Assembly (NCBI GenBank): GCA_018648805.1
Contig: JABGQM010000024.1
Span: 1,065-65,064, forward strand
Source of the DNA: Verrucomicrobiota bacterium
GTDB lineage: Bacteria; Verrucomicrobiota; Kiritimatiellia; UBA8416; JABMPJ01
Direction: 5' to 3'
Length of the DNA: 64,000 nucleotides
Shown: positions 4,496-44,401 of the stretch, in pieces
How the letters are laid out: each line of letters opens with the position of its first letter
How positions within the stretch are numbered: the first letter of the stretch is position 1
Notes under the pieces: model-generated
The model's input: only the letters and a program-made list of their open reading frames with translations
Told to the model about the DNA's origin: nothing
Databases searched by the model: none
Made by a program: the position numbers and the translations under genes

Positions 4496-6460
4496 TCAGC
4501 CTTCATCCTTCATCCCTCTCTTCATCGTCGCCCTCGTCTCCCGCAGATTCCTCTGCGCCGCAGTATAATCCGGCTTCAGTCGCAACGCCCGCTCGAAATG
4601 CCGGATCGCGTCGGGAAGCCGGCCGCCGGCCCGGTAGACAATGCCCAGGTTGTTGTGAGCTTCAGCGAAGTCCGGCTTGAGCCGGACGGCCTGCCGGTAG
4701 TGCTCAATCGCTTCGCGGGGGCGGCCCAGCGCGACCACGGCATTGCCCAGGTTGTAGTGGGCCTCCGGCAGGCCCGGGCTGAGCCGCAGCGCTTCCCGGC
4801 AGTGCTCAGCCGCTTCCCGGGAGCGGCCCAAAGCGTGTAGCGTACTGCCCAGGTTGTTGTGGGCGTCGGCAAAGTCAGGCTTGTGCTGAAGGGCCTCCTC
4901 ATAGTGCAGAATCGCCTGAGCGATGTGCCCCAACGCCTGCAGGGCATTGCCCAGGTTGTGGTGGGCGCGGGCGAAGTCGGGATCGAGCGCCACGGCTGCC
5001 TTAAGATGCTGGGCCGCTTCCGCGTATCGTCCATCCTTCAGCAGGCACCAGCCCACGCCGTTCCGGGCAAACGAACTCTCCGGACGATGGGCGACATTGT
5101 CCTGCCAGATCCGCAGTTCACTGTGATAGTCCCTGTTGCGGGCGTGTGTGAGGCACCCGAGCGCGGCTACGACGGTCAGCGTCAGGCAGCCGCCCAGCAC
5201 GGCCCGCCGTTTCGGATGCGGGGCGAGCTTCCGAATAGCGTATTCAGCGCCAAGAACGGCAAGCATGACGACGGCAGCCAGCGACAGGTACATGCGGTGC
5301 TCAAAGATCGCCTGCCGCATGGGCGCGATGCTCGAGGTCGGCGCCAGGATCAGGAAGAACCACGCGAGCACAAACCCATACCACTTGCGGCGCCACAGGC
5401 CGCGGAACATCACGGCCAGCATGCCCAGGACGGCCAGCCCCGGGAACACGATGCGCGGCCATTGATCCTCCAGCGTCCAGCCGTAGGAGAGCACCAGCGG
5501 CGCGGGCCAGACCGCCAGACGCAGGTACTGCAGCAGAACGAGGGGCTGGGTCAGGGCATAGCGCAGCGGGCTGATGTTGACGAAATCGATCGTTGATTCC
5601 TGCCAGGTGGCGACGATGATCCCGAAGACGATCAGCCAGGTGGAACACAGGGCCGCGTAGAACCGGCCTCGCCCCGGACGTCCGGGGCGGGCTACATGGC
5701 CGCCTCTCTGTAGCCCGCGCTCGCCGAGCGCGAGGCCACCAGGTTTGAGGCCACCAGTGAATACGTAGTCATAGAGAATCACGAGCAGCGGCGCGCTGAA
5801 CATGGTTTGCTTGACCCCCATTCCGATGGCACAGGCGATGACGGCGGCCACGTACCAGCGTCCACCCTTGTCGCTCGTGAACCCACGGATGGAGCAGTAC
5901 ATCGTCAGGAGGAACAGCATGCCCATCAGTGATTCGGCACGTTGCACGATGTAGGTGACGCTCTCGGTCTGCAGCGGGTGCACCAGCCAGATCAGGGCGG
6001 TGGACAGGGCGAGCCAGGTTCCCCTCCTGCGCCAAGGCTCCGGCGGGCAGGCGCTGGATGCATACCGCTCCCGAAACTGCGGCAGGTCCAGCGTGCGCCT
6101 GACGATGCCAAACAGGAGCAGGCCGGCCGCGAGGTGGATCAGCAGGTTGACCAGGTGGTAGCCCCACGGCTCTGGACCGAAGAGCCAGTGGTTTAGGGCA
6201 AAGGAGAGGCTGAGCAGCGGCCGGCCATCCACGGTGACACCGGTGTTCCACAGCGGCAGCGACATGGATTCGCTGAGCGGCCACAGCGCCCGGATATGGG
6301 GATTGTCGCGAATGGAGTCGATATCGTCGAAGAGGAACACGCCGTCGAAACTGTTCCAGTACGCCAGCACCCCCACTAGGATGAGGAGCATGGGAGGGAG
6401 GAGGCGACTCAGCAGTATGTGAGTGTGTGGGTGTGTGGGTGTGTGGGTGTTGCTTTGCAT
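4496..6460 (-). CDS. TMTC/PMT-like GT-C + TPR protein (paralog 3), in-frame REP insertion
   Basis: Same architecture; stop 4 nt from start of paralog 2; loop insertion GGLALGERGLQRGGHVARPGRPGRGRF encoded by REP pair 5666..5737. Confidence 0.7.
   Translation of the reverse strand: MQSNTHTPTHPHTHILLSRLLPPMLLILVGVLAYWNSFDGVFLFDDIDSIRDNPHIRALWPLSESMSLPLWNTGVTVDGRPLLSLSFALNHWLFGPEPWGYHLVNLLIHLAAGLLLFGIVRRTLDLPQFRERYASSACPPEPWRRRGTWLALSTALIWLVHPLQTESVTYIVQRAESLMGMLFLLTMYCSIRGFTSDKGGRWYVAAVIACAIGMGVKQTMFSAPLLVILYDYVFTGGLKPGGLALGERGLQRGGHVARPGRPGRGRFYAALCSTWLIVFGIIVATWQESTIDFVNISPLRYALTQPLVLLQYLRLAVWPAPLVLSYGWTLEDQWPRIVFPGLAVLGMLAVMFRGLWRRKWYGFVLAWFFLILAPTSSIAPMRQAIFEHRMYLSLAAVVMLAVLGAEYAIRKLAPHPKRRAVLGGCLTLTVVAALGCLTHARNRDYHSELRIWQDNVAHRPESSFARNGVGWCLLKDGRYAEAAQHLKAAVALDPDFARAHHNLGNALQALGHIAQAILHYEEALQHKPDFADAHNNLGSTLHALGRSREAAEHCREALRLSPGLPEAHYNLGNAVVALGRPREAIEHYRQAVRLKPDFAEAHNNLGIVYRAGGRLPDAIRHFERALRLKPDYTAAQRNLRETRATMKRGMKDEG
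5666..5737. repeat. REP pair inside CDS 4496..6460, in frame
   Basis: gggctacatgg...ctgtagcccgcgctcgccgagcgcgaggcc. Confidence 0.85.
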
Positions 6461-6545: not shown

Positions 6546-8606
6546 CTAATCCTCCACTCTCCCTTCCCCCTCCCCAATCATCTCCCTATCGATCATGCCC
6601 AAGTCTCGCAAAGCGATGCTCAGGTTGTTGTGGGCTTCGGCGTGGTCCGGCTTGAGCTGTAAGGCATGCCGGTAGTGCTCGACAGCCTCCCGCGGTTGCC
6701 CCAGTGCCAGCAGGGCGTTGCCCAGGTTGAAGGACGCTTCCGCCATATCAGGCTTGATCCGCAGCGCTTCCCGGCAGTGCGGGATGGCTGCCTGCAGGTG
6801 ACCCAGCGTCAGCAAGGCGTTGCCCAGGTTGTTGTGGGCTTCGGCGTGGTCGGGCTTGAGCTGCACGGCCTGCTGATAGTGGGGTATGGCTTCCTGCAGG
6901 CGCCCTGCCGCTGCCAGTGCCACCCCCAGGTTGTAGTGGGCCTCTACCCGGCCCGGATCGAGCTGCAAGGCCTGTTGATAATGTGATATCGCATCCTGTG
7001 GCCGCCCTGTCGCGTAAAGAGCCATACCCCAGTTGTTGTGGGCCTCCGCGTAGTCGGGTTTGAGCCGCAGCGCTTCCCGGTAGTGCGGGATGGCTTCCAG
7101 GGGCCGGCCCAGCGCATGCAAGGCGTTGCCCAGGTTGTTGTGGGCTTCGACGTGGTCGGGCTGGATCCTCAGGGCGGACCGGAGATGCCTGACCGCTTCC
7201 GCGTATCGTCCCTCATTCCGCAGGGAACAGGCCAGATTGTTGCGGGCAAAATGGCTCTCGGGGCAATGGGCGACATTGTCCTGCCAGATCCTCATCGCAC
7301 TGTGATAGTCCCGGTTGCGGTCGTGCGTGCGGTATCCCAACACGATCACGCTTGCCAGCGCCAGACAGCCGCCCACTGCGGCCCGTCGTTTCGGATGCGT
7401 GGCCAACTTTCGAACAGCGTATTCAGCGCCAAGAACGGCAAGCATGACGACGGCAGCCAGCGACAGGTACATGCGGTGCTCAAAGATCGCCTGCCGCATG
7501 GGCGCGATGCTGGAGGTCGGCGCCAGGATCAGGAAGAACCACGCGAGCACAAACCCGTACCACTTGCGGCGCCACAGGCCGCGGAACATCACGGCCAGCA
7601 TACCCAGGATGGCGATAGCCGGAAACACGATGCGCGGCCATTGATCCTCCAGTGTCCAGCCGTAGCTCAGCGCCAACGGCCAGGGCCAGATCGCTAAACG
7701 CAGGTAGGTTAGAAGTACGAGCGGCTGGGTGAGGGCATAGCGCAGCGGGCTGATTGTGACGAAATCGCTCGTCGACTCTTTCCAGGTGAGCCCGATGATC
7801 CCGAATACGATCAGCCAGGTGGAGCACAGGGCCGCGTAGAACCGGCCTCGCGCTCGGCGAGCGCGGGCTACAGGGGCCGCTCTCTGTAGCCCGCGCTCGC
7901 CGAGCGCGAGGCCACCAGGTTCGAGGCCACCAGTGAATACGTAGTCATAGAGAATCACGAGCAGCGGCACGCTGAACATCGTCTGCTTGACCCCCATGCC
8001 GATGGCGCAGGCGAGGACCGCCGCCACGTGCCAGCGTCCGCCCTTGTCGCTCGTGAACCCACGGATAGAGCAGTACATGGTCAACAGAAACAGCATGCCC
8101 ATCAGTGATTCAGCACGTTGCACGATATAGGTGACGCTCTCGGTTTGCAGCGGGTGCACGATCCAGATCAGGGCGGTGGCCAGGGCAAGCCAGGTCCCCC
8201 TGCTGCGCCAAGGCTCCGAAGGGCAAGCACTGCGTGCAAACCGCTCACGAAAGCGGGGCAGCGCAAGTGTGCGCCTGATCACCCCGAACAGCAGCAACCC
8301 GGCCCCGATGTGAATCAGCAGATTGACAAGATGGTAGCCCCACGGTTCCGGGCCAAAGAGCCAGTGGTTCAGGGCGAAAGAGAGGCTGAGCAGTGGCCGC
8401 CCGTCCACGGTCAACGCCGAGCTCCACAGCGGTAGCGACATGGCCTCGCTCAGCGGCCAGAGCTGGCGGATGTGGGGGTTATCGCGAATGGAGGCCAGGT
8501 CGTCGTAAACGAACACGCCGTCAAAGCTGCTCCAATAGACCAGCACACCCGCCAGGATGAGGAGGAGGGGGGGAAGGAGACGTCTTGTTTGCTGGAGGTC
8601 TTTCAT
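6546..8606 (-). CDS. TMTC/PMT-like GT-C + TPR protein (paralog 4), in-frame REP insertion
   Basis: Same motifs; insertion GGLALGERGLQRAAPVARARRARGRF encoded by REP pair 7855..7922. Confidence 0.7.
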   Translation of the reverse strand: MKDLQQTRRLLPPLLLILAGVLVYWSSFDGVFVYDDLASIRDNPHIRQLWPLSEAMSLPLWSSALTVDGRPLLSLSFALNHWLFGPEPWGYHLVNLLIHIGAGLLLFGVIRRTLALPRFRERFARSACPSEPWRSRGTWLALATALIWIVHPLQTESVTYIVQRAESLMGMLFLLTMYCSIRGFTSDKGGRWHVAAVLACAIGMGVKQTMFSVPLLVILYDYVFTGGLEPGGLALGERGLQRAAPVARARRARGRFYAALCSTWLIVFGIIGLTWKESTSDFVTISPLRYALTQPLVLLTYLRLAIWPWPLALSYGWTLEDQWPRIVFPAIAILGMLAVMFRGLWRRKWYGFVLAWFFLILAPTSSIAPMRQAIFEHRMYLSLAAVVMLAVLGAEYAVRKLATHPKRRAAVGGCLALASVIVLGYRTHDRNRDYHSAMRIWQDNVAHCPESHFARNNLACSLRNEGRYAEAVRHLRSALRIQPDHVEAHNNLGNALHALGRPLEAIPHYREALRLKPDYAEAHNNWGMALYATGRPQDAISHYQQALQLDPGRVEAHYNLGVALAAAGRLQEAIPHYQQAVQLKPDHAEAHNNLGNALLTLGHLQAAIPHCREALRIKPDMAEASFNLGNALLALGQPREAVEHYRHALQLKPDHAEAHNNLSIALRDLGMIDREMIGEGEGRVED
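7855..7922. repeat. REP pair inside CDS 6546..8606, in frame
   Basis: ggcctcgcgctcggcgagcgcgggctacag/ctgtagcccgcgctcgccgagcgcgaggcc, two inverted copies. Confidence 0.85.
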
Positions 8607-10145: not shown

Positions 10146-12409
10146 TTCTGTATCTCCCCTCTCATCTCCCTCGTCTCCCGCAGATTCTCGACCGCTACAG
10201 CATAATCCGGATTCAATCGCACAGCCTCTTCGAAATGCCTGATCGCGTCCGTAAGCCGGCCGCTTTGCTGGTAGAGAGCACCCAGATTGTTGTGGGCCGA
10301 GGCGTCGGCCGGATTGATGCGCACCGCCTGCCGGCCGCGGGCGATGCCCTCATCGGTAAGGCCGAGATGGTGTAGAGCAACGCCCCAGTTCTTGTGGGCG
10401 CCAGCGTAATCCGGCTTGAGCTGCACGACCTGCCGGTAATGCTCGATGGCTTCCCGGGAGCGTCCCAATGCCAGCAGGGCATTGCCCAGGTTGTAGTGGG
10501 CGTCCACCAACGCCGGTTCGATCCGCACGGCCACTTGATAATGAGCAAGCGCGTCCTGCAACCGTCCTGCCGTCTGCAGTGCGATCCCCCAGTTGAAGTG
10601 GGTCTTTGCATCGCCGGGGTTAAGACGTAGCGCCTCCCGGTAGTGCCGAATGGCTTCCAGGGGTTGGCCCATCGCCAGTAGGGCATTGCCCAGGTTGAGA
10701 TGGGCCTCCCCCAGGCCCGGCTTGATCCGTAACGCTTCCCGGGAGTGCTCCGCAGCTTCCCGGGAGCGCCCCATCACCTGCAGAGCGTGACTCAGATTGC
10801 TGTGGGCTTCAGCGTAATTCGGCTGGATCCGCAGGGCCTGCTGATAGTGGACAATCGCCTCTTGCGGCCGCCCCAGGGCGTTAAGCGCAATCCCCAGGTT
10901 GTAGTGCGCCTCTGCGTAGTCCGGGCTGATCCGCAGCGCTTCGCGACAGTGCTCGAGCGCTTCCCGGGAGCGCCCCGAAGCCAGCAGGGCATTACCCAGG
11001 TTGTTGTGGGCCACATGACTCCCGGGACGATAGGTGACATTGTCCTGCCAGATCCCGATTTCGCTGTGATAGGTCCTGTTGCGACCGTGCGTCAGGACGC
11101 CCAACACGATCATGACCGCCATCGTCAGGCAGGCGCCCAGCGCCACACGTTGTTTCGGGATTTTGACGAGCTTTCGAATGGCAACGTCACCCAGCATGAC
11201 CGCCAACGTGACAACGGCAGCCAGCGAGAGATACATGCGATGTTCGAAGATCGCCTGGCGCGTGGGCGCAACGCTGGAGGTCGGGGCCAGGATCAGGAAG
11301 AACCATGCGAGCACAAACCCGTACCACTTGCGGCGCCGGATGCCGCGGCACATCACGGCCAGCAGGCCCAGGATGGCCAACGCAGGGAACACGATGCGAT
11401 ACCATTGATCCTCCATCCCCCATCCATAAGTGAGCACCAGCGGCGAGGGCCAGACCGCCAGACGAAGGTAATGAAGCAGGACAAGGGGTTGGGTAAGGAG
11501 ATAGCGCAGTGGGCTGATGTTGACGAAATCGCTCGTTGATTCCTGCCAGGTGAGCCCAATGATCCCGAAGACGATCAGCCAGGTCGAACAAAGGGCCGCG
11601 TAGAATCGGCCTCGCGCTCGGCCCATCCTTCGCGCTTCGCTGGCTACGGAGGGCAAGCGAGCGCGGGCTACAGAGAGTGGGCCTTGTAGCCCGCGCCCCG
11701 CAGAGCGGGGTAAACTCGCCGCTTGCCCCGCCTTGGCGGGGAGCGCGAGGCCACCAGGTTCGAGGCCACCAGTGAATATGTAATCGTAGAGAATCACGAG
11801 TAGCGGCGCGCTGAACATGGTCTGCTTGACCCCCATGCCGATGGCGCAGGCGAGGACCGCCGCCACGTGCCAGCGTCCACCCTTGTCGCTCGTAAACCCC
11901 CGAATCGAACAGTACATGGTCAGGAGAAACAGCATCCCCATGAGCGACTCGGCGCGTTGCACGATGTAGGTCACGCTCTCGGTCTGCAGCGGATGCACCA
12001 GCCAGATCAAGGCGACGGCAAGCGATAACCAGGTCGGGTTGCCCGGGCATCGCTCGCGAAGGCGCGGCAGGGCCAGTGTACGCCTGACCACCCCGAACAG
12101 CAGCAACCCGGCCCCGATGTGGATCAGCAGGTTGACTAGGTGATAGCCCCACGGTTCCGGGCCGAAGAGCCAGTGGTTCAGGGAGAAAGAGAGGCTGAGC
12201 AGTGGCCGCCCGTCCACGGTCAATGCCGAGCTCCACAGCGGTAGCGACATGGACTCGCTAAGCGGCCAGAGCAGGCGGATGTGGGGGTTATCGCGAATGG
12301 AGGCCAGGTCGTCGTAAACGAACACGCCATCGAAACTGTTCCAGTACGCAAGCACTCCTGCCAAGATGAGCAGGAGGAAGGGAAGCCAGCGCTTGAGTGG
12401 ATGTTTCAT
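10142..12409 (-). CDS. TMTC/PMT-like GT-C + TPR protein (paralog 5), long in-frame REP/BIME insertion
   Basis: Same architecture; ~57-aa insertion LALPAKAGQAASLPRSAGRGLQGPLSVARARLPSVASEARRMGRARGRF encoded by REP cluster 11608..11752. Confidence 0.7.
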   Translation of the reverse strand: MKHPLKRWLPFLLLILAGVLAYWNSFDGVFVYDDLASIRDNPHIRLLWPLSESMSLPLWSSALTVDGRPLLSLSFSLNHWLFGPEPWGYHLVNLLIHIGAGLLLFGVVRRTLALPRLRERCPGNPTWLSLAVALIWLVHPLQTESVTYIVQRAESLMGMLFLLTMYCSIRGFTSDKGGRWHVAAVLACAIGMGVKQTMFSAPLLVILYDYIFTGGLEPGGLALPAKAGQAASLPRSAGRGLQGPLSVARARLPSVASEARRMGRARGRFYAALCSTWLIVFGIIGLTWQESTSDFVNISPLRYLLTQPLVLLHYLRLAVWPSPLVLTYGWGMEDQWYRIVFPALAILGLLAVMCRGIRRRKWYGFVLAWFFLILAPTSSVAPTRQAIFEHRMYLSLAAVVTLAVMLGDVAIRKLVKIPKQRVALGACLTMAVMIVLGVLTHGRNRTYHSEIGIWQDNVTYRPGSHVAHNNLGNALLASGRSREALEHCREALRISPDYAEAHYNLGIALNALGRPQEAIVHYQQALRIQPNYAEAHSNLSHALQVMGRSREAAEHSREALRIKPGLGEAHLNLGNALLAMGQPLEAIRHYREALRLNPGDAKTHFNWGIALQTAGRLQDALAHYQVAVRIEPALVDAHYNLGNALLALGRSREAIEHYRQVVQLKPDYAGAHKNWGVALHHLGLTDEGIARGRQAVRINPADASAHNNLGALYQQSGRLTDAIRHFEEAVRLNPDYAVAVENLRETREMRGEIQK
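11608..11752. repeat. REP/BIME cluster (3-4 units) inside CDS 10142..12409, in frame
   Basis: contains gcgggctacagagagtgggccttgtagcccgcgccccgcagagcggggtaaactcgccgcttgccccgccttggcggggagcgcgaggcc. Confidence 0.8.
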
Positions 12410-12412
12410 CCT

Positions 12413-14455
12413 TCAGCCCTCATCCTTCATCCTTCTCGTCTCCCGCAAATTCTCTCGCGCCACACTGTACTCCGGTTTCAGTCGCAGCGCCTCTTCAAAA
12501 TGCCTGATCGCATCCGGGAGCCGGCCGCTTTCCTGATAGATGGCACCCAGGTTGTTGTGGGCCGAGGCGTCGGCGGGATTGATGCGCACCGCCTGCAGGC
12601 CGTGGACGATGGCCTCATCGTTGCGGCCCAGGTAGAGCAGCGCGACGCCCCAGTTTTTGTGGGCACCGGCGTAGTCCGGCTCACGCAGCAAGACCTGCCG
12701 GTACTGCTCGATCGCTTCCTGTGGTTGCCCCAGCGCCAGCAGGCGATTGCCCAGGTTGTAACGGGCGTCTACCAGGTCCGGGTCGATCCGCACGGCCTTC
12801 CGATAGTGAGACAGTGCGTCCCCCGGCTGCCCTCCCGCCTCAAGTGCGACCCCGTAGTTGTAAAGGGCCTCCGCGTGGCGGGGGTTTAGTCGCACAGCTT
12901 CGCGGTAGTGTTGCATGGCTTCGCGGAGGTCGCCCAGCGCCTGTAGGGCATTGCCCAGGTTGTTGTGGGCATCCGCGTCCATCGGGTCGATACGTAGCGC
13001 TTCCCGGCAGTGTTCGGCCGCTTCGCGGGAACGCCCCAGCGCCTGCAACGCATGGCCCAGGTTATTGTGGGCAACATGGCTCTCGGGTCGATGGGTGACA
13101 TTGTCCTGCCAGATCCGCAGTTGACTGTGATAGTCCCGGTTGCGATCGTGAGTGCGGTATCCCAACACGATCACGCTTGCCAGCGCCAGGCAGCCGCCCA
13201 CTGCGGCACGTCGTTTCGGGTCCGTGGCGAACTTTCGAACAGCGTACTCAGCGCCAAGAACGGCAAGCATGACAGCTGCCGCCAGCGACAGGTACATGCG
13301 ATGCTCGAAGATGGCCTGGCGCATGGGTGCGATGCTGGAGGTCGGGGCCAAGATCAGGAAGAACCACGCGAGAACGAATCCGTACCATTTGCGGCGGACT
13401 ATGCCGCGGAACATCACGGCGAGCATACCCAGGATGGCCAGAGCAGGAAACACGATGCGGGGCCATTGATCCTCCAGCGTCCAGCCGTAGGACAATACCA
13501 GCGGCGAAGGCCAGACCGCCAGGCGCAGGTACTGCAGCAGAACGAGGGGCTGGGTCAGGAGATAGCGCAGCGGGCTGATGCTGACGAAATCGCTCGTCGA
13601 TTCCTGCCAGGTGGCGACGATGATCGCAAAGACGATCAGCCAGGTCGAGCAAAGGGCCGCGTAGAACCGGCCTCGCGCTCGGCCCATCCTTCGCGCTTCG
13701 CTGGCTACGGAGGGCAGGCGAGCGCGGGCTACAGAGAGCGGGTCCTGTAGCCCGCGCCCCGCGGAGCGGGGTAAACTCGCCGCTTGCCCCGCCTTGGCGG
13801 GGAGCGCGAGGCCATCGGTGAATATGTAATCGTAGAGAATCACGAGTAGCGGCGCGCTGAACATGGTCTGCTTGACCCCCATCCCACAGGCACAGGCGAG
13901 GACGGTGGCCGCGTACCAGCGGCCACTCTTCTCGCCTCTGAGTCCCCGAATCGCGCAGTACATCGTCAGCAGGAAGAGCAGCCCCATCAGCGATTCGGCG
14001 CGCTGTACGATGTAGGTTACGCTCTCGGTCTGCAGGGGGTGGACCAGCCAGATCGCTGCCGTGGCCATGGCAATCCAACAGCCACTGCCCTCATACCGCT
14101 CGCGAAACTGTGGAAGATCAAGCGTGCGCCGGACCACTCCGAAGAGCAGCAGCCCGGCCGCGATATGAATCAGAAGGTTGACCAGATGGTAGCCCCGGGG
14201 CTCCGGACCGAGCAGGGCGTGGTTCAGGGCAAAGGAGAGGCTGAGCAGCGGCCGGCCATCCACGGTCATCCCCGTGCTCCACAGCGGCAGCGACATGGAT
14301 TCGCTCAGCGGCCACAGTCTACAGATGTGTGGGTTATCCCGGATGGAGTGGACGTCGTCGTACAGGAACACACCATCGAAGCTGTTCCAATACGCCGCCA
14401 CCCCCACCAGGATAAGGAGGAGGAAGGGAAGCCAGCTCTTGAGCGGATGTTTCAT
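12413..14455 (-). CDS. TMTC/PMT-like GT-C + TPR protein (paralog 6), in-frame REP/BIME insertion
   Basis: Same motifs; insertion identical in type to paralog 5 (REP cluster 13669..13813). Confidence 0.7.
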   Translation of the reverse strand: MKHPLKSWLPFLLLILVGVAAYWNSFDGVFLYDDVHSIRDNPHICRLWPLSESMSLPLWSTGMTVDGRPLLSLSFALNHALLGPEPRGYHLVNLLIHIAAGLLLFGVVRRTLDLPQFRERYEGSGCWIAMATAAIWLVHPLQTESVTYIVQRAESLMGLLFLLTMYCAIRGLRGEKSGRWYAATVLACACGMGVKQTMFSAPLLVILYDYIFTDGLALPAKAGQAASLPRSAGRGLQDPLSVARARLPSVASEARRMGRARGRFYAALCSTWLIVFAIIVATWQESTSDFVSISPLRYLLTQPLVLLQYLRLAVWPSPLVLSYGWTLEDQWPRIVFPALAILGMLAVMFRGIVRRKWYGFVLAWFFLILAPTSSIAPMRQAIFEHRMYLSLAAAVMLAVLGAEYAVRKFATDPKRRAAVGGCLALASVIVLGYRTHDRNRDYHSQLRIWQDNVTHRPESHVAHNNLGHALQALGRSREAAEHCREALRIDPMDADAHNNLGNALQALGDLREAMQHYREAVRLNPRHAEALYNYGVALEAGGQPGDALSHYRKAVRIDPDLVDARYNLGNRLLALGQPQEAIEQYRQVLLREPDYAGAHKNWGVALLYLGRNDEAIVHGLQAVRINPADASAHNNLGAIYQESGRLPDAIRHFEEALRLKPEYSVARENLRETRRMKDEG
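13669..13813. repeat. REP/BIME cluster inside CDS 12413..14455, in frame
   Basis: near-duplicate of 11608..11752 cluster. Confidence 0.8.
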
Positions 14456-14500: not shown

Positions 14501-16699
14501 TCTCTTCATCATTTTCCTCGCCTTGCGCAGATTATCTCGCGCCGCAGTATAGTCCGGTTTCAATCGCAGCGCCTCTTCAAAATGCCGGATCGCCTCGGCG
14601 AGTCGGCCGCTTTTCTGGTAGGTCATGCCCAGCTTGTAGTGGGCTGGTGCGAACTCCGGTTCGAAACGCAGGGCGTCTCGATAGCAGTCCATCGCCTCCC
14701 CGGGCTTCCCGGCCGCTTCCAGTGCAATCCCCAGGTTGTACTTGACCTCGGGGGAGTGCGGCTTGAGACGGGCTGCTTCACGGTGGTGCCTGACCCCTTC
14801 CCGGGGCTGTCCCTGCGCCAATAGCGCGTTGCCCAGGTTGATGTGAGCTTCCGCGTGATTCGGGTCGAGCTGTATGGCCTCTCGGTAGCGGGCAATCGCT
14901 TGCCGCGGCTCACCGGCTGCCTCCAGGGCAACCCCCATATTGTAGTTGATTCCGACGGAGTCCGGCTTGAGCCTGAGCGCATCCCGGTAATGCACAATCG
15001 CCTCCCGTGGATGCCCGCCTCTCAGCAGGGCATCACCCAGATTGCCCTGGGCGTCTTCCAGGTCCGGCTTGATCCGTACGGCCTCTCGATAGTGATCTAT
15101 CGCCTCCCCCCGCTGTCCCGACACCTCCAGGGCGATACCCAGGTTGTAGTTGACATCGGCGTCGTCCGGTTTGAGCCGAAGCGCCGCCCGGTAGTGCCGT
15201 ATGGCTTCACGGGTCTGCTTCAGAGCTAGCAGGGCATTGCCCAGGTTGTTGTGAGCATCTGCATACTCCGGGTCGATCCGCAGCGCTTCCCGGCAATGCG
15301 GAAGCGCTTCCCGGGCGCGACCCGACGCCAGCAGGGCCTCGCCGAGATTGACGTGGGCCAGCTGGCTCTCCGGCCGATGCGCAACATTGTCCTGCCACAA
15401 CCCGATGGTGCTGTGATAGTCACGGTTGCGAGCATAGGTGAGGGCCCCGAGGACAACCACGACTACCGCTGCCAGGGCGCCACGCGCCATTGCACGCGTT
15501 GAAACCGTGCGAACGCATCGGACCACGCGCGAGACGCCGATCACCGCGAGGACCACGACCGCCGCGAGCGACAGGTACATGCGGTGCTCGACCATCGCCT
15601 GCCGTGTGGGTGCGATGCTGGAGGTCGGTGCGAGGATCAGGAGGAACCACGCCAGGACGAACCCATACCAGCGGCGGCGCCACAGGCCCCGAATCATCAC
15701 GGCCAGCATGCCCAGAATAACCAGGGCCGGAAACACGATGGGTGGCCACTGAGTTGTAAATGGCCACTCGTAAGACAGAACCAGTGGCGACGGCCAGACC
15801 GCCAGGCGCAGATACTGCAGTAGAACGAGGGGCTGGGTAAGGGCGTAGCGCAGCGGACTGATCTCGACAAAATCGATCGTCGATTCCTTCCAGGTTAACC
15901 CGATGATGCCGAGAACGATCAGCCAGGTGGCAAAGAGGCCCGCGTAGAACCGGCCTCGCGCTCGGCGAGCGCGGGCTACATGGCCCGATCTCTGTAGCCC
16001 GCGCTCGCCGAGCGCGAGGCCATCGGTGAATACGTAGTCATAGAGAATCACCAGCAGCGGTGCACTGAACATCGTCTGCTTGACTCCCATGCCGATGGCG
16101 CAGGCGACGACGGCGGCCACGTACCAGCGTCCACCCTTGTCGCTCGTGAACCCCCTAATCGCACAATACATCGTCAACAGAAACAACATCCCCATCAGTG
16201 ACTCGGCGCGTTGCACGATGTAGGTGACGCTCTCGGTCTGCAGCGGATGCACCAGCCAGATCAAGGCGACGGCAAGCGACAACCAGGTCGGGTTGCCCGG
16301 GCATCGCTCGCGAAAGCGCGGCAGGTCCAGTGTACGCCTGACCACCCCGAAGAGGAGCAACCCGGCCACGAGGTGAATCAGCAGGTTGACCAGGTGGTAG
16401 CCCCACGGTTCCGGGCCGAACAAGAAATGATTCAGAGCAAATGACAGACTGAGCAACGGCCGCCCGTCCACGGTCGTAGCCGTGCTCCACAGCGGCAGCG
16501 ACATAGCCTCACTGAGCGGCCACAGCGTGCGGATATGTGGGTTATCCCGAATGGAGGTTAGATCGTCGTACAGGAACACGCCGTCGAAGCTGTTCCAGTA
16601 CGCCAGCACACCCGCCAAGATCAGGAGCAAGGGGGGGAGGAAACGACTCAGCAGTATGTGAGTGTGTGGGTGTCTGGGTATGTTGGTGTTGCGTTGCAT
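14480..16699 (-). CDS. TMTC/PMT-like GT-C + TPR protein (paralog 7), in-frame REP insertion
   Basis: N-term MQRNTNIPRHPHTHILLSRFLPPLLLIL then conserved core; insertion DGLALGERGLQRSGHVARARRARGRF from REP pair 15952..16021. Confidence 0.7.
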   Translation of the reverse strand: MQRNTNIPRHPHTHILLSRFLPPLLLILAGVLAYWNSFDGVFLYDDLTSIRDNPHIRTLWPLSEAMSLPLWSTATTVDGRPLLSLSFALNHFLFGPEPWGYHLVNLLIHLVAGLLLFGVVRRTLDLPRFRERCPGNPTWLSLAVALIWLVHPLQTESVTYIVQRAESLMGMLFLLTMYCAIRGFTSDKGGRWYVAAVVACAIGMGVKQTMFSAPLLVILYDYVFTDGLALGERGLQRSGHVARARRARGRFYAGLFATWLIVLGIIGLTWKESTIDFVEISPLRYALTQPLVLLQYLRLAVWPSPLVLSYEWPFTTQWPPIVFPALVILGMLAVMIRGLWRRRWYGFVLAWFLLILAPTSSIAPTRQAMVEHRMYLSLAAVVVLAVIGVSRVVRCVRTVSTRAMARGALAAVVVVVLGALTYARNRDYHSTIGLWQDNVAHRPESQLAHVNLGEALLASGRAREALPHCREALRIDPEYADAHNNLGNALLALKQTREAIRHYRAALRLKPDDADVNYNLGIALEVSGQRGEAIDHYREAVRIKPDLEDAQGNLGDALLRGGHPREAIVHYRDALRLKPDSVGINYNMGVALEAAGEPRQAIARYREAIQLDPNHAEAHINLGNALLAQGQPREGVRHHREAARLKPHSPEVKYNLGIALEAAGKPGEAMDCYRDALRFEPEFAPAHYKLGMTYQKSGRLAEAIRHFEEALRLKPDYTAARDNLRKARKMMKRGMRDEG
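15952..16021. repeat. REP pair inside CDS 14480..16699, in frame
   Basis: ggcctcgcgctcggcgagcgcgggctaca...ctgtagcccgcgctcgccgagcgcgaggcc. Confidence 0.85.
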
Positions 16700-18574: not shown

Positions 18575-18720
18575 CTGTAGCCCGTCCCGATTGCGAAACG
18601 CATCGGGACCAAGCGCGAGGCCCTCCCTGTAGCCCGCTCTCGCCGAGAGCGAGGCCGCTCTGTAGGTGGGCAGAGCTCTTGAGCATCCTGCCTCGCGCTC
18701 GGCGAGCGCGGGCTACAGGA
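18575..18720. repeat. Intergenic REP cluster
   Basis: four GTAGCCCG/CGGGCTAC units in alternating orientation. Confidence 0.8.
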
Positions 18721-21899: not shown

Positions 21900-21929
21900 T
21901 GGTTTCTATCAAACCCACGCACGCCTGGC

Positions 21930-22223
21930 CAGCGCGGGCTACGTAGCCCAGAGTGAAGTTGGCCGGTCCGCATCCCGCATGGCCCTCCCAGTAGCCCGCT
22001 CTCGCCTGCCCTCCGTCTTGTCCTCCAAAGCTCGCAGAGCGACGGAGGAAGCCAGCGAAGCGCGAAGGATGGGCCGAGAGCGAGGCCGCTCTATGATGGT
22101 GCAGAGCTCTTAAGCATCCTGCCTCGCGCTTGGCAAGCGCGGGCTACATAGCCCAGAGTGAAGTCACCCGGTCCGCATCCTGCATGGCCCTCCCTGTAGC
22201 CCGCGCTCGCCGAGCGCGAGGCC
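21930..22223. repeat. Intergenic REP/BIME array (about six units with a ~90-bp composite unit duplicated at 21932 and 22138)
   Basis: gcgcgggctac(g/a)tagcccagagtgaagt...ctgtagcccgcgctcgccgagcgcgaggcc. Confidence 0.8.
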
Positions 22224-22345
22224 TCCCGGAAGATTACCTCGGAAGAATACGCAAACGCTCTGGGATGCTCTGGGACTGAAACACCCATTGCGTAGCGACA
22301 GGAACAGTGTTAGAGTTACAACCAATGGGTACGAGGTCGGGTGAC

Positions 22346-22639: not shown

Positions 22640-22642
22640 GCC

Positions 22643-22843: not shown

Positions 22844-22860
22844 CGGATTCCGCCCGCTCC

Positions 22861-23030
22861 CTGTAGCCCGCCCCGCAGATGCAGGGCTTAACGTCGCCCA
22901 TTGGCCTCGCGCTTGGCAAGCGCGGGCAACATGCATCAGCTCCCCTGTAGCCCGCTCTCGCCGAGAGCGAGGCCGACTCCAGGTGGAAGCCTTGCCCTCC
23001 ATCATCCTGCCTCACGCTCGCCGAGCGCGG
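22861..23030. repeat. Intergenic REP cluster
   Basis: ctgtagcccgccccgcag...ctgtagcccgctctcgccgagagcgaggcc...cctcacgctcgccgagcgcgg. Confidence 0.75.
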
Positions 23031-28012: not shown

Positions 28013-28178
28013 GCCCCCTCCGGCACGCTCGTGACGATCAGGTAAGGCGCAAGAATCCCTGAGAAAAGGGTGAAGTGAATCACGAATGGGGTGGGGCATC
28101 TGATGCACCACCCCTCGTGTTATAGGTCCCCAAAATCGGACGCTAGCTCGACCGCCGCCCTGTCTCTCCCGCTCCCTG
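28013..28178. repeat. Direct repeat copy 2 (~90% identical to 25262..25420)
   Basis: ...cgctcgtgacgatcaggtaag...gggtgaagtgaatcacgaatggggtggggcatctgatgcaccacccctcgtgttataggtccccaaaatcggacgctagctcgacc...ctccctgtagccc. Confidence 0.75.
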
Positions 28179-28243
28179 TAGCCCGCTCCCCGCGGAGCGG
28201 GGTAAACTCGCCGCTTGCCCCGCCTTGGCGGGGAGAGCGAGGC
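28176..28243. repeat. Intergenic REP units
   Basis: ctgtagcccgctccccgcggagcggggtaaactcgccgcttgccccgccttggcggggagagcgaggc. Confidence 0.75.
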
Positions 28244-29120: not shown

Positions 29121-29123
29121 AAC

Positions 29124-29345: not shown

Positions 29346-29460
29346 AGGGCACCGATCCTTTCTTTCCGTGATACCTACCAATGGGTATATACCATATGCG
29401 CCGGAATGTCAAGTCGAACGGGCTCCCATGATTATGCATCCGTCTCCCTTGCAGCCCTCC

Positions 29461-29658
29461 CTGTAGCCTTCCCTGTAGCCCGCGCTCGGCTCCCCCTGAG
29501 CTTGCCGAAGGGCCGAGCGCGAGGCAATCCTGCCACATGATTCTGCTCAGGTCCGATTTTGCCACGTTTGCCACACCACGCCGCCCGTCCCGCGTCGCTA
29601 CATCTTTCTTCCCCTGCAGCCCTCTTCCCTGTAGCCCGCGCTCGCCGAGCGCGAGGCC
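29461..29658. repeat. REP cluster flanking RAYT (downstream side)
   Basis: ctgtagcc...ctgtagcccgcgctcggc...ctgtagcccgcgctcgccgagcgcgaggcc. Confidence 0.8.
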
Positions 29659-29681
29659 AAAACTCGCAGAGTCTTACGCCA

Positions 29682-30332
29682 TCACAGCACGCGTCCTCCC
29701 CACGACCCATACGGCCACGCCTCGGCATCATCTACCAGGCCTGCTCGAACGGGGTTCTGCCTGATATAGTGGGCGATGCGGTCGGTCTCGTCGGCGGACC
29801 TCGACCAGTGATCGAACCATTCGTCCTGCCAGAACCGTTGGCCGGTGCGTCCGAGAAGCTGGTTCGCCTGTCGAGCGGTCCAGCGCTTGAAATCGGTCAG
29901 CAGCTCTCTCATGCCCACTTGGCCACCGATGTAGAGAATGTGGAGGTGACTCGGCATGACAACCCAGTGCAGAGGACGCCAGACACCGTTTGCGGCCCGT
30001 TTGGCGATGGCTTCACCCAGCATGCGGGCCACCTCCGGATTGCCCAGCCACTGCACGCGCTCGGTGTGGTCGAGCCATTCCTCCATCTGCTTGAAGATAA
30101 GCTTCAGCCTGCGGGTGTAGTCCCTGTCGCCCCGGTGGCAGAGCGATGCCGCATCCGCACGGATGCGCTGCATCGCCTCCTTGGGAATAGCACCACGCAG
30201 ATGCAGCGTCAGAAAGATCGGGCGGCCCAGCACATCCCAGTGCGGCAGGTTGCCACCCCAGAACGCGCGTGTCTGTGGCTGGCCGTCGTAGACAACCGGA
30301 GGATAGCCATCATGCGGGCGGGCAGATTGCAT
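29682..30332 (-). CDS. REP-associated tyrosine transposase (RAYT, IS200/IS605 Y1 family)
   Basis: HUH-like motif MPSHLHILY, C-terminal ...WQDEWFDHWSRS...IAHYIRQNPVRAGLV typical of Y1 transposases; flanked on both sides by REP clusters (29461..29658 and 30352..30509); start set at second Met because the first 12 codons are REP sequence. Confidence 0.7.
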   Translation of the reverse strand: MQSARPHDGYPPVVYDGQPQTRAFWGGNLPHWDVLGRPIFLTLHLRGAIPKEAMQRIRADAASLCHRGDRDYTRRLKLIFKQMEEWLDHTERVQWLGNPEVARMLGEAIAKRAANGVWRPLHWVVMPSHLHILYIGGQVGMRELLTDFKRWTARQANQLLGRTGQRFWQDEWFDHWSRSADETDRIAHYIRQNPVRAGLVDDAEAWPYGSWGGRVL

Positions 30333-30351
30333 AGGCGCAGTGTGGCAGATG

Positions 30352-30509
30352 GGCCTCGCGCTTGGCAAGCGCGGGCTACAGGAAACCCATCCAGCCTCCC
30401 CGCATCACTTCTCCGCCATGTAGCCCGCGCTCGCCGAGCGCGAGGCAAGATGCTCGATGGCATTACTCCCAATGAAACCAGCCACGCTCTCGCCGAGAGC
30501 GGGCTACAG
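30352..30509. repeat. REP cluster flanking RAYT (upstream side)
   Basis: ggcctcgcgcttggcaagcgcgggctacagg...tgtagcccgcgctcgccgagcgcgaggc...ctctcgccgagagcgggctacag. Confidence 0.8.
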
Positions 30510-32278: not shown

Positions 32279-32347
32279 GCCTCGCTCTCGGCGAGAGCGG
32301 GCTACAGGGAGGTGCATCATGTAGCCCGCGCTCGCCGAGCGCGAGGC
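32279..32347. repeat. Intergenic REP pair
   Basis: ggcctcgctctcggcgagagcgggctacaggg...tgtagcccgcgctcgccgagcgcgaggcc. Confidence 0.85.
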
Positions 32348-35204: not shown

Positions 35205-35296
35205 ATGTAGCCCGCGCTCGCCGAGCGCGAGGCCGACTCCATGTAGAAGCCCTGCCCTTGACTATCCTGCCTCGCGCTTGGCAAGCGCGGGCTACA
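35205..35296. repeat. Intergenic REP pair
   Basis: tgtagcccgcgctcgccgagcgcgaggcc...cctcgcgcttggcaagcgcgggctaca. Confidence 0.85.
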
Positions 35297-38243: not shown

Positions 38244-38337
38244 CCTGTAGCCCGCTCTCGCCGAGAGCGAGGCCAGATGCTCGAGGGCAATACGCCAACA
38301 TGGTGCCGGCCTCGCGCTCGGCGAGCGCGGGCTACAA
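38244..38337. repeat. Intergenic REP pair
   Basis: ctgtagcccgctctcgccgagagcgaggcc...ggcctcgcgctcggcgagcgcgggctaca. Confidence 0.85.
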
Positions 38338-44260: not shown

Positions 44261-44390
44261 GTAGCCCGCTCTCGCCGAGAGCGAGGCTCCCCGTGGATAT
44301 GGGCATTGGCGCCATCTCTGCCTCGCGCTCGGCGAGCGCGGGCTACATGATGCACGTTCCCTGTAGCCCGCGCTTGCCAAGCGCGAGGCC
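44261..44390. repeat. Intergenic REP cluster (3 units)
   Basis: tgtagcccgctctcgccgagagcgaggc...cctcgcgctcggcgagcgcgggctaca...ctgtagcccgcgcttgccaagcgcgaggcc. Confidence 0.85.
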
Positions 44391-44401
44391 ATCCCGGAAG
44401 A

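What the first reader, a model, noticed from the sequence alone, without database searches (positions are those of the whole stretch)
29461..30509. RAYT transposase bracketed by its own REP family, which recurs ~17 times in the window
ORF 29682..30332 has the Y1/HUH transposase signatures HLHILY and the C-terminal WQDEWFDHWSRS...YIRQNPV block. It sits between two REP clusters. The REP unit is GTAG + CCCGCGCTCG(C/G)CGAGCGCGAGGCC: a 5' GTAG tail plus an imperfect palindrome. This is the architecture RAYTs are known to recognise and mobilise. The same unit, often as inverted pairs (BIME-like), appears at ~17 loci here, both intergenic and inside CDS. This one element family appears to be shaping the locus.
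Basis: partly seen in the sequence, partly recalled or inferred. Interest (0 to 1): 0.6.

Follow-up and report, generated by a model that had tools for sequence, protein, structure and literature searches.

The report
RAYT transposase with its REP repeats
This is an ordinary example, in an uncultured Verrucomicrobia genome, of a known pair: one domesticated tyrosine (HUH) transposase gene (RAYT) and the short GTAG-headed hairpin repeats (REPs) it most likely spreads, six of which lie in frame inside glycosyltransferase genes.

Summary
The observation and the interpretation both hold. ORF 29682-30332 (minus strand, 216 aa) is a REP-associated tyrosine transposase. Its HUH histidines (H129, H131), catalytic Tyr189, N193 and the GTAG-contact residues are invariant in 45 relatives. 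Its predicted fold matches E. coli TnpA-REP (4ER8) best. It is bracketed by five units of one repeat, GTAG plus a 9-bp bulged hairpin. That repeat has 26 canonical copies (0 expected) and about 10 variant units, at 16 loci within the first 44.4 kb.

The stem keeps pairing through compensatory double changes only. Most copies are inverted doublets made of one consensus arm and one variant arm, so the doublet is copied as a unit (REPIN-like). The same repeat occurs on 29 further metagenome contigs. Relatives of the gene across Planctomycetota, Lentisphaerota and Verrucomicrobiota are flanked by their own GTAG hairpins, 24-fold enriched next to the gene.

Six doublets lie in frame inside six tandem GT-C/TPR glycosyltransferase paralogs and add about 19-50 residues to one loop. 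Some repeat loops carry nested hairpin inserts.

All of this is published for the PVC superphylum (Di Nocera 2013; Quentin 2018). It is a new member of a known kind, of low to moderate interest. Catalysis and mobility are inferred, not shown.

The parts
29682..30332 (-). RAYT (TnpA-REP-type HUH/Y1 tyrosine transposase), 216 aa. HUH is H129-L-H131. The catalytic Tyr is Y189 in YIRQNP. N193 and the GTAG-contact block W168 Q169 ... D174 H175 ... R178 are present.
30353..30379 (-). REP (TTG/CAA stem variant), 20 nt upstream of the RAYT start codon, on the same strand as the gene, with its head distal to the gene
30420..30507 (.). Tail-to-tail REP doublet: consensus arm 30420-30446 (+), 34-nt spacer, CTC-variant arm 30481-30507 (-). 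The TAG of the GTAG head of the minus-strand arm is the stop codon (30504-30506) of the neighbouring LPG_synthase_TM gene.
29631..29657 (+). Consensus REP 24 nt downstream of the RAYT stop codon, inverted relative to the upstream REP at 30353-30379
29475..29525 (+). REP with a 23-nt insert in its loop. It is preceded by a duplicated CCCTGTAGCC at 29461-29474.
3776..3846 (.). Head-to-head REP doublet (CTC arm + consensus arm) in frame inside GT-C/TPR paralog p1 (2531-4492, minus). It is followed by a tail that resembles the one beside the intergenic copy at 32279-32347.
5666..5736 (.). Head-to-head doublet (alternative-stem arm GTAGCCCGCCCCGGACGTCCGGGGCGAGGC + consensus arm) in frame in paralog p2 (4496-6460, minus)
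7845..7912 (.). Head-to-head doublet (consensus + consensus) in frame in paralog p3 (6546-8606, minus). It encodes GLALGERGLQ-RAAP-VARARRARGR.
11609..11751 (.). Head-to-head doublet in frame in paralog p4 (10142-12409, minus). Both loops carry nested inserts of +36 and +39 nt.
13670..13812 (.). The same doubly nested doublet, in frame in paralog p5 (12413-14455, minus)
15953..16020 (.). Head-to-head doublet (consensus + consensus) in frame in paralog p6 (14480-16699, minus)
18577..18716 (.). Intergenic cluster: an alternative GTAG hairpin (18577-18610) and a tail-to-tail doublet (18629-18655 +, 18690-18716 -)
21915..22222 (.). Intergenic cluster upstream of the carbamoyltransferase gene: a partial unit (head at 21942, minus strand), a three-level nested REP (21991-22086), and REPs at 22121-22147 (-) and 22196-22222 (+)
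22863..22973 (.). A partial nested-type unit plus a head-to-head doublet (22904-22930 -, 22947-22973 +). They overlap the 5' end of an ORF with no Pfam match (22316-23005), which is probably not coding there.
28178..28243 (+). Intergenic REP (CTC-variant stem) carrying the same +39-nt nested insert as the copies in p4 and p5
32279..32347 (.). Head-to-head doublet between the radical-SAM gene (32373-33452) and the methyltransferase gene (31578-32243), which run in the same direction
35207..35295 (.). Tail-to-tail doublet between the radical-SAM/SPASM gene and the transketolase-N gene, which run in the same direction
38247..38335 (.). Tail-to-tail doublet between divergent genes (a radical-SAM gene and a DegT aminotransferase gene)
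44261..44389 (.). REP triplet (CTC +, consensus -, TTG +) that fills the gap between convergent genes (DUF6016 and GT2). It is the last copy in the window.

Best explanation
The locus is a cognate RAYT-REP (REPtron/REPIN) system of a Verrucomicrobia MAG.

**Proposed mechanism.**
1. The 216-aa protein is a single-domain HUH/Y1 single-strand DNA endonuclease of the TnpA-REP type.
2. It most likely binds the folded REP hairpin on single-stranded DNA, for example during replication.
3. It reads the 5' GTAG foot with the W-Q...D-H...R block.
4. It cuts and rejoins next to the hairpin through a covalent 5'-phosphotyrosine link to Tyr189, with the HUH histidines holding the metal ion.
5. This copies or moves REP doublets to new sites, while the gene itself stays single-copy at a fixed place between REPs.

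**What is shown here.**
- The catalytic and GTAG-contact residues are intact and invariant, and the fold matches.
- The hairpin is maintained by compensatory changes.
- The doublet is inherited as a unit.
- The repeat is dispersed well beyond this window.
- Relatives carry their own lineage-specific GTAG hairpins next to the gene.

**What is inferred.**
- Catalysis.
- That this protein mobilises these repeats.
- That it is active now.

**Intragenic copies.** The six intragenic doublets are insertions into a short Arg-rich loop of GT-C/TPR glycosyltransferases. I infer that this loop faces the cytoplasm. They are tolerated because the frame in use avoids the TAG and encodes an Ala/Arg/Gly-rich peptide. 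They then spread among the tandem paralogs by duplication, by gene conversion, or by repeated insertion at the same spot.
For: **Protein.**
- NCBIfam REP_Tyr_transpos: E = 2.1e-22. It is hit by 45 of 45 relatives, against 5 of 45 for the IS200 model.
- Alignment to 4ER8 puts H129/H131 on H59/H61 and Y189 on Y115.
- H129, H131, W168, Q169, D174, H175, R178, Y189, N193 and P194 are invariant in 45 sequences. These correspond to W94, Q95, E100, H101, R104 and N119, which PMC6006769 lists as GTAG-contact or essential residues.
- AlphaFold pLDDT is 85.6. The best Foldseek match in the PDB is 4ER8_A (E = 5.6e-9, TM 0.70), followed by the ISDra2, IS608 and IS200 TnpA structures.

**Repeat.**
- 26 copies against 0 expected.
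- In 96 copies (13 distinct sequences), all 9 stem pairs are 100% paired. Three pairs change on both sides and none on one side only. Slid controls give 28-56% paired.
- As single-stranded DNA the hairpin folds at -11.7 kcal/mol (z = -3.9). Doublets fold at -40 to -50 kcal/mol (z = -7 to -11).
- 22 of 26 head-to-head doublets pair a consensus arm with a variant arm. Arm frequencies are 56 consensus, 28 CTC and 10 TTG.

**Dispersal.** 35 metagenome contigs carry the exact 27-mer, and 29 of them lie outside the window.

**Fixed single locus.** The exact protein was found on 11 contigs. The five places shown all have the context LPG_synthase_TM | RAYT | PIN module. There is only one copy in the window.

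**Cognate pairing in relatives.**
- L041 (70% identity) is flanked by 3 + 3 units of two GTAGCCC-headed hairpins with different stems.
- Across 81 loci, GTAG hairpins reach 3.49 per kb near the gene against 0.143 per kb away from it. Control tetramers give 0.25-0.64 per kb.

**Intragenic copies.**
- The ORFs are continuous, with PMT_2 and TPR domains on either side of the insert.
- Homologues without the repeat carry a short ancestral loop, F-x-S-GSLRAAL-RRRW-x-LY.
Against: - No biochemical or population evidence of movement was obtained, and no empty orthologous site was found.
- The curated HMM cutoffs are narrowly missed: NCBIfam 79.6 against 80, Pfam Y1_Tnp 22.7 against 23.
- Within the window alone, REPs on both sides of one gene are only weakly surprising, because about a quarter of the intergenic gaps in the first 44 kb hold REPs.
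- The many identical copies could reflect constraint or gene conversion rather than recent transposition.
- Genome-wide copy number is unknown.
Confidence: 0.85

Rival explanations
1. The repeats persist mainly because the host uses them, for example as mRNA-stabilising or attenuating hairpins between genes of the glycan-biosynthesis operons. On this view the RAYT is a domesticated nuclease that processes or maintains them and no longer transposes them.
For: - The intergenic copies sit in short gaps between co-directional or convergent genes of one biosynthetic cluster.
- One REP supplies a stop codon.
- The gene is single-copy and at a fixed position.
- PMC3733652 argues that many REPs act as RNA elements.
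Against: - No T-run terminators and no Rfam family were found.
- Copies inside coding loops, and nested copies inside other REP loops, are hard to explain by an operon function.
- Heterodimer doublets copied as units at 20 or more unrelated sites point to replication of the element.
- This rival is not exclusive of the best explanation.
Confidence: 0.2
2. The system is a relic. The RAYT is inactive, and the REPs are decaying leftovers spread only by duplication and recombination of the host DNA.
For: - The six intragenic copies can be explained by gene duplication and conversion. Paralogs p1 and p2 share a 100% identical 3' stretch of about 300 nt. Contig L008 lacks window 2839-4512.
- Several units are partial or disrupted (21942, 22863, and the left arm in P0134).
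Against: - The ORF is intact, with every catalytic and DNA-contact residue conserved.
- 54 of 96 copies have the consensus 27-mer exactly, and 37 share one identical 28-mer.
- The copies are flanked by unrelated sequence on 29 other contigs.
- The stem shows only compensated changes.
Confidence: 0.08
3. The ORF is the TnpA of an ordinary autonomous IS200/IS605 insertion sequence, and the hairpins are its left and right ends.
For: There is a weak Pfam Y1_Tnp match and structural similarity to the IS608, ISDra2 and IS200 transposases.
Against: - The IS200 model scores only 14.9 bits against a cutoff of 55, while the RAYT model scores 79.6.
- There is no tnpB next to the gene. The neighbours are an LPG synthase gene and a PIN toxin module.
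- There is one copy in the window, always in the same context.
- The flanking hairpins are inverted, GTAG-headed, and far more numerous than the gene.
Confidence: 0.02

Closest known systems
E. coli TnpA-REP / RayT (YafM) with REP/BIME elements (PDB 4ER8)
   Same: - HUH + Tyr single-domain fold. It is the best structural match.
- H59/H61, Y115, N119 and the GTAG-contact residues W94, Q95, H101 and R104 are conserved.
- The repeat has a 5' GTAG foot and a bulged hairpin.
- The gene is flanked by inverted REPs.
   Different: - Only about 19% identity.
- This protein is 216 aa against 165 aa. In the model it has an extra N-terminal beta-hairpin carrying an invariant F..LPHW motif, and a helical hairpin of about 45 aa between the first core strand and the next helix.
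- E100 is replaced by Asp.
- The stem sequence is unrelated.
- The doublets are simple HH/TT pairs, not BIMEs with Y/Z types.
Pseudomonas fluorescens SBW25 RAYT-REPIN system (Bertels & Rainey 2011, PMC3116915)
   Same: - A single-copy transposase flanked by its repeats.
- Inverted REP doublets behave as the replicating unit. Here this shows as a heterodimer bias.
- Lineage-specific pairing between repeat and gene.
   Different: - A different RAYT subclass: Pseudomonas belongs to Quentin 2.5 / Bertels group 3, while this protein fits the 2.7 signature better.
- A different phylum.
- Many copies here lie inside genes.
GTAG REP families of Opitutus terrae and other PVC bacteria (Di Nocera et al. 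2013, PMC3733652)
   Same: - The same superphylum.
- GTAG-tagged REPs with REPtrons.
[quoted passage not shown]
   Different: - A different repeat sequence family and an uncultured host.
- Here the intragenic doublet recurs at one homologous loop in six tandem paralogs.
- Some REP loops carry nested hairpin inserts, which that paper does not describe.
Rickettsia palindromic elements (RPEs)
   Same: Palindromic repeats inserted in frame into protein-coding genes that stay open (as cited in PMC3733652).
   Different: - The intragenic R. conorii repeats RPE-4 and RPE-6 belong to the CGTC class, which has no dedicated transposase (PMC3733652).
- The repeats here have a cognate RAYT.
IS200/IS605 TnpA (IS608, ISDra2)
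   Same: The same HUH/Y1 fold, and presumably the same single-strand DNA chemistry guided by hairpins.
   Different: There is no IS structure, no tnpB, and only a single copy. The hairpins are dispersed independently of the gene.

Membership tests
RAYT / TnpA-REP (REP-associated tyrosine transposase) | HUH metal-binding motif | tested here: met
   H129-L-H131 aligns to E. coli H59-M-H61. Both His are invariant in 45 relatives.
RAYT / TnpA-REP (REP-associated tyrosine transposase) | Catalytic Tyr in a YIxxNP helix, followed by the essential Asn | tested here: met
   Y189 in YIRQNP aligns to Y115, and N193 to N119. Y189, N193 and P194 are invariant. The residue roles are taken from PMC6006769.
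RAYT / TnpA-REP (REP-associated tyrosine transposase) | GTAG-contact residues (E. coli W94, Q95, E100, H101, R104) | tested here: met
   W168, Q169, D174 (E to D, as in subclasses 2.5 and 2.7), H175 and R178 are all invariant.
RAYT / TnpA-REP (REP-associated tyrosine transposase) | Score at or above the curated family HMM cutoff | tested here: inconclusive
   NCBIfam NF047646 scores 79.6 bits against a cutoff of 80 (E = 2e-22). Pfam Y1_Tnp scores 22.7 against 23. The shortfall comes from the N-terminal insert that splits the core. 45 of 45 relatives hit NF047646.
RAYT / TnpA-REP (REP-associated tyrosine transposase) | TnpA-REP fold | tested here: met
   The best Foldseek hit is 4ER8_A: E = 5.6e-9, TM (target) 0.70, rmsd 2.9 A. 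The model has pLDDT 85.6.
RAYT / TnpA-REP (REP-associated tyrosine transposase) | Gene flanked by REPs in inverted orientation | tested here: met
   30353-30379 (-) lies upstream and 29631-29657 (+) downstream, with more units on both sides. The same holds in 62 of 81 related loci.
RAYT / TnpA-REP (REP-associated tyrosine transposase) | Single copy per genome, vertically inherited | not testable with these tools
   Only a 64-kb window is held. There is one copy in the window. The exact protein is on 11 contigs, and the five places shown share the same context.
RAYT / TnpA-REP (REP-associated tyrosine transposase) | Cleaves and rejoins single-stranded REP DNA | not testable with these tools
   This needs biochemistry.
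REP / REPIN repeats (GTAG class) | Imperfect palindrome of 20-40 nt with a 5' GTAG foot | tested here: met
   The unit is GTAG + CC + CGCGCTC + GCC loop + GAGCGCG + bulged A + GG. GTAG is conserved in 94 of 96 copies.
REP / REPIN repeats (GTAG class) | Hairpin under selection (compensatory change) | tested here: met
   All cells are paired (100%). Three pairs change on both sides and none on one side only. 0 of 500 shuffles reach the observed covariation score.
REP / REPIN repeats (GTAG class) | Many dispersed copies in the genome | tested here: inconclusive
   There are about 36 units at 16 loci in the window, and 29 further contigs carry the repeat. A whole-genome count was not possible.
REP / REPIN repeats (GTAG class) | Inverted doublet as the unit of replication (REPIN) | tested here: met
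   26 head-to-head and 11 tail-to-tail doublets were found. 22 of the 26 head-to-head doublets are consensus + variant heterodimers. From the arm frequencies I estimate about half would be expected by chance.
REP / REPIN repeats (GTAG class) | Extragenic location | tested here: inconclusive
   10 of 16 loci are intergenic and 6 are in frame inside genes. Intragenic GTAG REPs are already documented in Verrucomicrobia.
Quentin et al. 2018 TnpA-Y1 subclass 2.7 | Signature [ND]HVH / WQ / YI[LR][NQ]NP, about 213 aa, long variable N-terminus, E100 replaced by D, canonical GT[AG]G REPs nearby | tested here: inconclusive
   - Observed signature: SHLH / WQ / YIRQNP, 216 aa, with D174 in place of E100.
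- N-terminal extension and GTAG REPs are present.
- The HuH prefix differs (S or N in the family).
- The authors' HMM was not available.
IS200/IS605 insertion sequence | Transposase matches the IS200 model. The element has its own ends, often carries tnpB, and is multi-copy. | tested here: not met
   The IS200 model scores 14.9 bits against a cutoff of 55. There is no tnpB neighbour. There is a single copy.

The most novel reading that the evidence does not exclude
In this Verrucomicrobia lineage the RAYT may insert doublets preferentially into exposed single-stranded hairpin loops and into a few coding hot spots.

- This would explain the two- and three-level nested REPs.
- It would also explain the recurrence of in-frame doublets at the same loop in glycosyltransferase lineages whose closest repeat-free relatives keep the ancestral loop.
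- REP-encoded Ala/Arg/Gly-rich peptides would then be a recurrent, frame-selected source of loop variation in envelope-glycan enzymes, and not only tolerated junk.
Probability: 0.15. Interest if true: 0.5.

Novelty: new member of a known kind. Interest (0 to 1): 0.3.

Why it matters
The locus adds a clean, well-resolved RAYT-REPIN pair from an uncultured Verrucomicrobia lineage. Together with about 80 related loci, it shows that a whole PVC-wide RAYT clade keeps the GTAG foot while its hairpin stems diversify with the gene.

For annotation:
- The 216-aa ORF should be named a REP-associated tyrosine transposase, even though it falls 0.4 bits under the curated cutoff.
- The GLALGERGLQ...VARARRARGR segments in the TPR/GT-C proteins are repeat-encoded.

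It does not change the current understanding of how these systems work.

Tried and rejected
- **Species-representative genomes.** An exact-match scan of 185,579 genomes for the REP 27-mer found nothing. The host species is therefore not in that set, and no whole-genome census was possible.
- **Rfam.** A gathering-threshold scan of the whole window gave no family.
- **Promoters and terminators.** A consensus scan around the gene found nothing upstream of the RAYT or in the REP clusters. The only hit was one promoter-like site inside the PIN gene, and there were no terminators.
- **Six independent hits in the paralogs.** I considered this and rejected it as stated. The left boundary is the same in all six, and the paralogs recombine.
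- **A single ancestral insertion.** This is not clean either. On a neighbour-joining tree, repeat-free homologues P0135-P0138 fall inside the repeat-bearing clade, and p1 groups with repeat-free P0162. The tree has no support values, so the history is left open.
- **A recent conversion tract around the p1 doublet.** Sliding-window identity showed only a modest local peak there, which overlaps a protein-constrained motif.
- **Empty sites.** I did not search for orthologous empty sites of the intergenic doublets, because the related contigs I fetched were not syntenic at those sites.
Full report
**1. What is in the sequence**

The window has 61% G+C. Between 29461 and 30509 there is one minus-strand ORF, 29682-30332. 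It starts at an ATG and encodes 216 aa.

A longer TTG-started version (to 30368) would run into a repeat. Gene callers on 11 public contigs chose the 216-aa form.

The repeat GTAGCCCGCGCTCGCCGAGCGCGAGGC occurs 26 times at 3 or fewer mismatches on both strands, against 0.00 expected in 100 dinucleotide-preserving shuffles. Counting long-loop and alternative-stem variants gives about 36 units at 16 loci. All lie between 3776 and 44389, and none in the last 19.6 kb.

Five units bracket the ORF:
- 29475-29525 (+, with a 23-nt insert in the loop) and 29631-29657 (+) lie on its 3' side.
- 30353-30379 (-), 30420-30446 (+) and 30481-30507 (-) lie on its 5' side.

The two units nearest the gene are inverted relative to each other, with their GTAG heads pointing away from the gene.

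**2. The protein**

*Family models.* Pfam gives only Y1_Tnp at 22.7 bits (cutoff 23). NCBIfam gives REP_Tyr_transpos at 79.6 bits (cutoff 80, E = 2e-22), and the IS200 model at 14.9 bits (cutoff 55). All 45 aligned relatives hit the RAYT model, and only 5 hit the IS200 model.

*Sequence alignment to a solved structure.* A search against solved structures finds E. coli TnpA-REP (4ER8). Query HLH falls on H59-M-H61, and query HYIRQNPV on DYIYINPV, so Y189 corresponds to Y115.

*Conservation.* In the 45-sequence family alignment these residues are invariant: H129, H131, W168, Q169, W172-R178, Y189, N193 and P194. According to Quentin et al. 2018 (PMC6006769), W94, Q95, E100, H101 and R104 of the E. 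coli enzyme contact the GTAG foot, and N119 is essential. E100 is Asp in their subclasses 2.5 and 2.7. The residues here (W168, Q169, D174, H175, R178, N193) match that pattern.

*Predicted structure.* The AlphaFold model (pLDDT 85.6, pTM 0.83) matches 4ER8_A best in the PDB (E = 5.6e-9, TM 0.70). The ISDra2, IS608 and IS200 transposases follow.

*Differences from the E. coli enzyme.* In the model, the family has an N-terminal beta-hairpin with an invariant F..LPHW motif. It also has a helical hairpin of about 45 residues inserted after the first core strand. That insert is why the profile matches start only at residue 91 and fall just short of the cutoffs.

*Subclass.* The signature SHLH / WQ / YIRQNP, the 216-aa length and the long N-terminus fit Quentin's small subclass 2.7 best. 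I could not test this with their models.

**3. The repeat**

Folded as single-stranded DNA, the unit forms a 9-bp stem: CC + CGCGCTC pairs with GAGCGCG + GG, with one bulged A and a GCC loop. The energy is -11.7 kcal/mol (z = -3.9).

I aligned 96 copies from the window and from non-overlapping metagenome contigs (13 distinct sequences). Every stem cell is paired. Three pairs show changes on both sides (G10:C20 to T:A, C13:G17 to T:A, C11:G19 to T:A), and none shows a one-sided change. No shuffle reaches the observed covariation score, and slid registers give 28-56% pairing.

The copies pair up in two ways:
- Head-to-head doublets: CTAC, 14-17 nt, GTAG.
- Tail-to-tail doublets: spacers of 29-35 nt.

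Of 26 head-to-head doublets, 22 join a consensus arm to a variant arm, and 18 of these are CTC + consensus. Overall arm frequencies are 56 consensus, 28 CTC and 10 TTG. Some metagenome loci are the same site assembled more than once, so the independent count is somewhat lower.

This heterodimer bias means the doublet is inherited as one unit, which is the REPIN concept. The compensated differences between the two arms create mismatches in the long doublet hairpin. The constraint therefore acts on each single REP hairpin. That is the form bound by TnpA-REP in 4ER8.

**4. Beyond the window**

- **Species-representative genomes.** The exact 27-mer is absent from 185,579 of them.
- **Metagenome contigs.** It is present on 35 JGI contigs from a handful of samples. 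Of these, 29 do not overlap the window at 200 nt or more. The family is therefore dispersed in this organism or its close relatives.
- **Host.** A window protein is 100% identical to an NCBI protein from a 'Verrucomicrobia bacterium' MAG contig of 66,853 bp.
- **Fixed gene position.** The exact RAYT protein is on 11 contigs. The five places shown all have the context LPG_synthase_TM | RAYT | small ORF + PIN.
- **A 70%-identical relative (L041).** It sits in a different gene context. It is flanked by three units on each side of a 93-nt repeat made of two GTAGCCC-headed hairpins with different stems.
- **Eighty further relatives.** They are 33-65% identical. They come mostly from Planctomycetota, Lentisphaerota/Victivallales, Verrucomicrobiota, Kiritimatiellae and Hydrogenedentota.
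- **Enrichment next to the gene.** GTAG-headed hairpins reach 3.49 per kb within 600 nt of the gene and 0.143 per kb elsewhere. 62 of 81 loci have at least two. Five control tetramers give 0.25-0.64 per kb.
- **Cognate pairs.** The foot stays GTAG while the stems differ by clade (GTAGGTCCCGCC..., GTAGCCCCGGCCCG..., GTAGGCCTTCGCTCG...). That is the pattern expected of cognate enzyme-repeat pairs.

**5. Copies inside genes**

Six tandem minus-strand ORFs of 653-755 aa are paralogs: 2531-4492, 4496-6460, 6546-8606, 10142-12409, 12413-14455 and 14480-16699. Each has an N-terminal GT-C/PMT_2-like membrane domain and C-terminal TPR repeats. Public sources call them 'protein O-mannosyl-transferase' or 'tetratricopeptide repeat protein'.

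Each holds a head-to-head doublet in frame at the same place, directly after the conserved LYDY(V/I)F motif. The inverted arm reads GLALGERGLQ and the forward arm reads VARARRARGR. The forward arm is read as GTA GCC ..., which avoids the TAG.

Homologues without the repeat have a short loop instead, F-x-S-GSLRAAL-RRRW-x-LY. These include some that are 59-73% identical to paralog p3. The doublet is therefore an insertion into, and partial replacement of, an Arg-rich loop.

The history of the insertion is not simple:
- On a neighbour-joining tree with the insert masked, p1 and its orthologue P0172 group with repeat-free P0162. Repeat-free P0135-P0138 fall among the repeat-bearing p2-p6 clade (no support values).
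- The p1 insert also carries an extra tail that resembles the one beside the intergenic doublet at 32279-32347.
- Recombination among the paralogs is real. p1 and p2 share a 100% identical 3' stretch of about 300 nt. One metagenome contig lacks window 2839-4512.

I therefore leave open whether the doublet reached the paralogs by gene conversion or by repeated insertion at a hot spot.

A related contig, L122, shows that such hits recur. P0138 lacks this doublet, but it carries two in-frame doublets of a second GTAG family at other sites. The window's own family lies intergenic on the same contig. That second family flanks RAYTs that are 41-42% identical to this one (L090, L099, L104).

**6. Nested units**

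Several REPs carry extra hairpins inside their loops:
- A +39-nt insert occurs at window 11686-11751, 13747-13812 and 28178-28243.
- A +36-nt insert occurs at 11609-11671 and 13670-13732.
- A 23-nt insert occurs at 29475-29525.
- A three-level structure occurs at 21991-22086.

The +39 insert occurs in both the consensus and the CTC stem background, and also on non-window contigs L015 and L035. The +36 insert occurs on L007 and L018. Inside the genes both insert lengths are multiples of three, so the frame is kept.

**7. Comparison with what is known**

- RAYTs flanked by REPs were described in 2010-2011, and the REPIN concept in 2011 (PMC3116915).
- Di Nocera et al. 2013 (PMC3733652) report GTAG REPs and REPtrons in the PVC superphylum. 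[quoted passage not shown] - Quentin et al. 2018 describe REPs inserted in frame in genes and the residues that read the GTAG foot.
- I did not find hairpins nested inside REP loops in Di Nocera et al., who describe the converse: REP dimers inside larger palindromes.

The finding is thus a correct call on a known kind of system. It adds a new repeat family, a new host and some modest curiosities.

**8. Verdict**

- Best explanation: a cognate RAYT-REP/REPIN system (confidence 0.85). Catalysis and current mobility are inferred.
- Novelty: new member of a known kind.
- Interest: 0.3.

Noticed in passing
window 2531-16699 (minus strand): Six tandem paralogs of a GT-C/PMT_2-like membrane domain fused to TPR repeats, interrupted by one GDSL-lipase/TPR gene (8607-10145). 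They form part of a larger glycan-biosynthesis cluster: a carbamoyltransferase, several radical-SAM enzymes, a methyltransferase, a DegT aminotransferase and a GT2.
   Followed up: partly
window 2531-2838 vs 4496-4800; locus L008: Paralogs p1 and p2 are only about 50-65% identical over most of their length but 100% identical over the last ~300 nt. Metagenome contig L008 lacks window 2839-4512, exactly between these identical stretches. Both point to recent gene conversion and unequal recombination in the array.
   Followed up: partly
window 30504-30507: The TAG stop codon of the LPG_synthase_TM gene (30504-31568, minus) is the TAG inside the GTAG head of REP 30481-30507. The repeat therefore defines the end of that protein (...ARERLSL*).
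   Followed up: yes
window 11609-11751, 13670-13812, 21991-22086, 28178-28243, 29475-29525: REP hairpins with other small hairpins nested in their loops, up to three levels deep. The same +39-nt and +36-nt inserts recur in different stem backgrounds and on unrelated contigs (L007, L015, L018, L035).
   Followed up: partly
L122:10578-10643 and 11264-11359: A second GTAG repeat family (GTAGCCCCGGCCCGTCC..., GTAGCGCGGCGCCG...) lies in frame at two other sites of the related glycosyltransferase P0138. The same family flanks RAYTs 41-42% identical to this one in L090, L099 and L104.
   Followed up: partly
window 18577-18610; L122:13900-13933: A third GTAG-headed hairpin type (GTAGCCCGTCCCGATTGCGAAACGCATCGGGACC) lies next to a REP doublet and recurs next to REPs on L122.
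   Followed up: no
window 25633-29381: Next to the RAYT there is a PIN-domain toxin gene (28662-29120) with a small upstream ORF (29124-29381), which looks like a VapBC-type module. Beyond it lie a DUF4062 gene and a SLFN_AlbA_2/HATPase_c_4 gene, which look like defence-island genes.
   Followed up: no
window 44390-64000: No unit of the REP family occurs in the last 19.6 kb of the window, although the first 44.4 kb holds about 36.
   Followed up: no
window 5666-5695: In paralog p2 one arm keeps the GTAGCCCG...CGAGGC frame, but its inner stem is replaced by an unrelated palindrome (CCCCGGAC/GTCCGGGG), still in frame.
   Followed up: no
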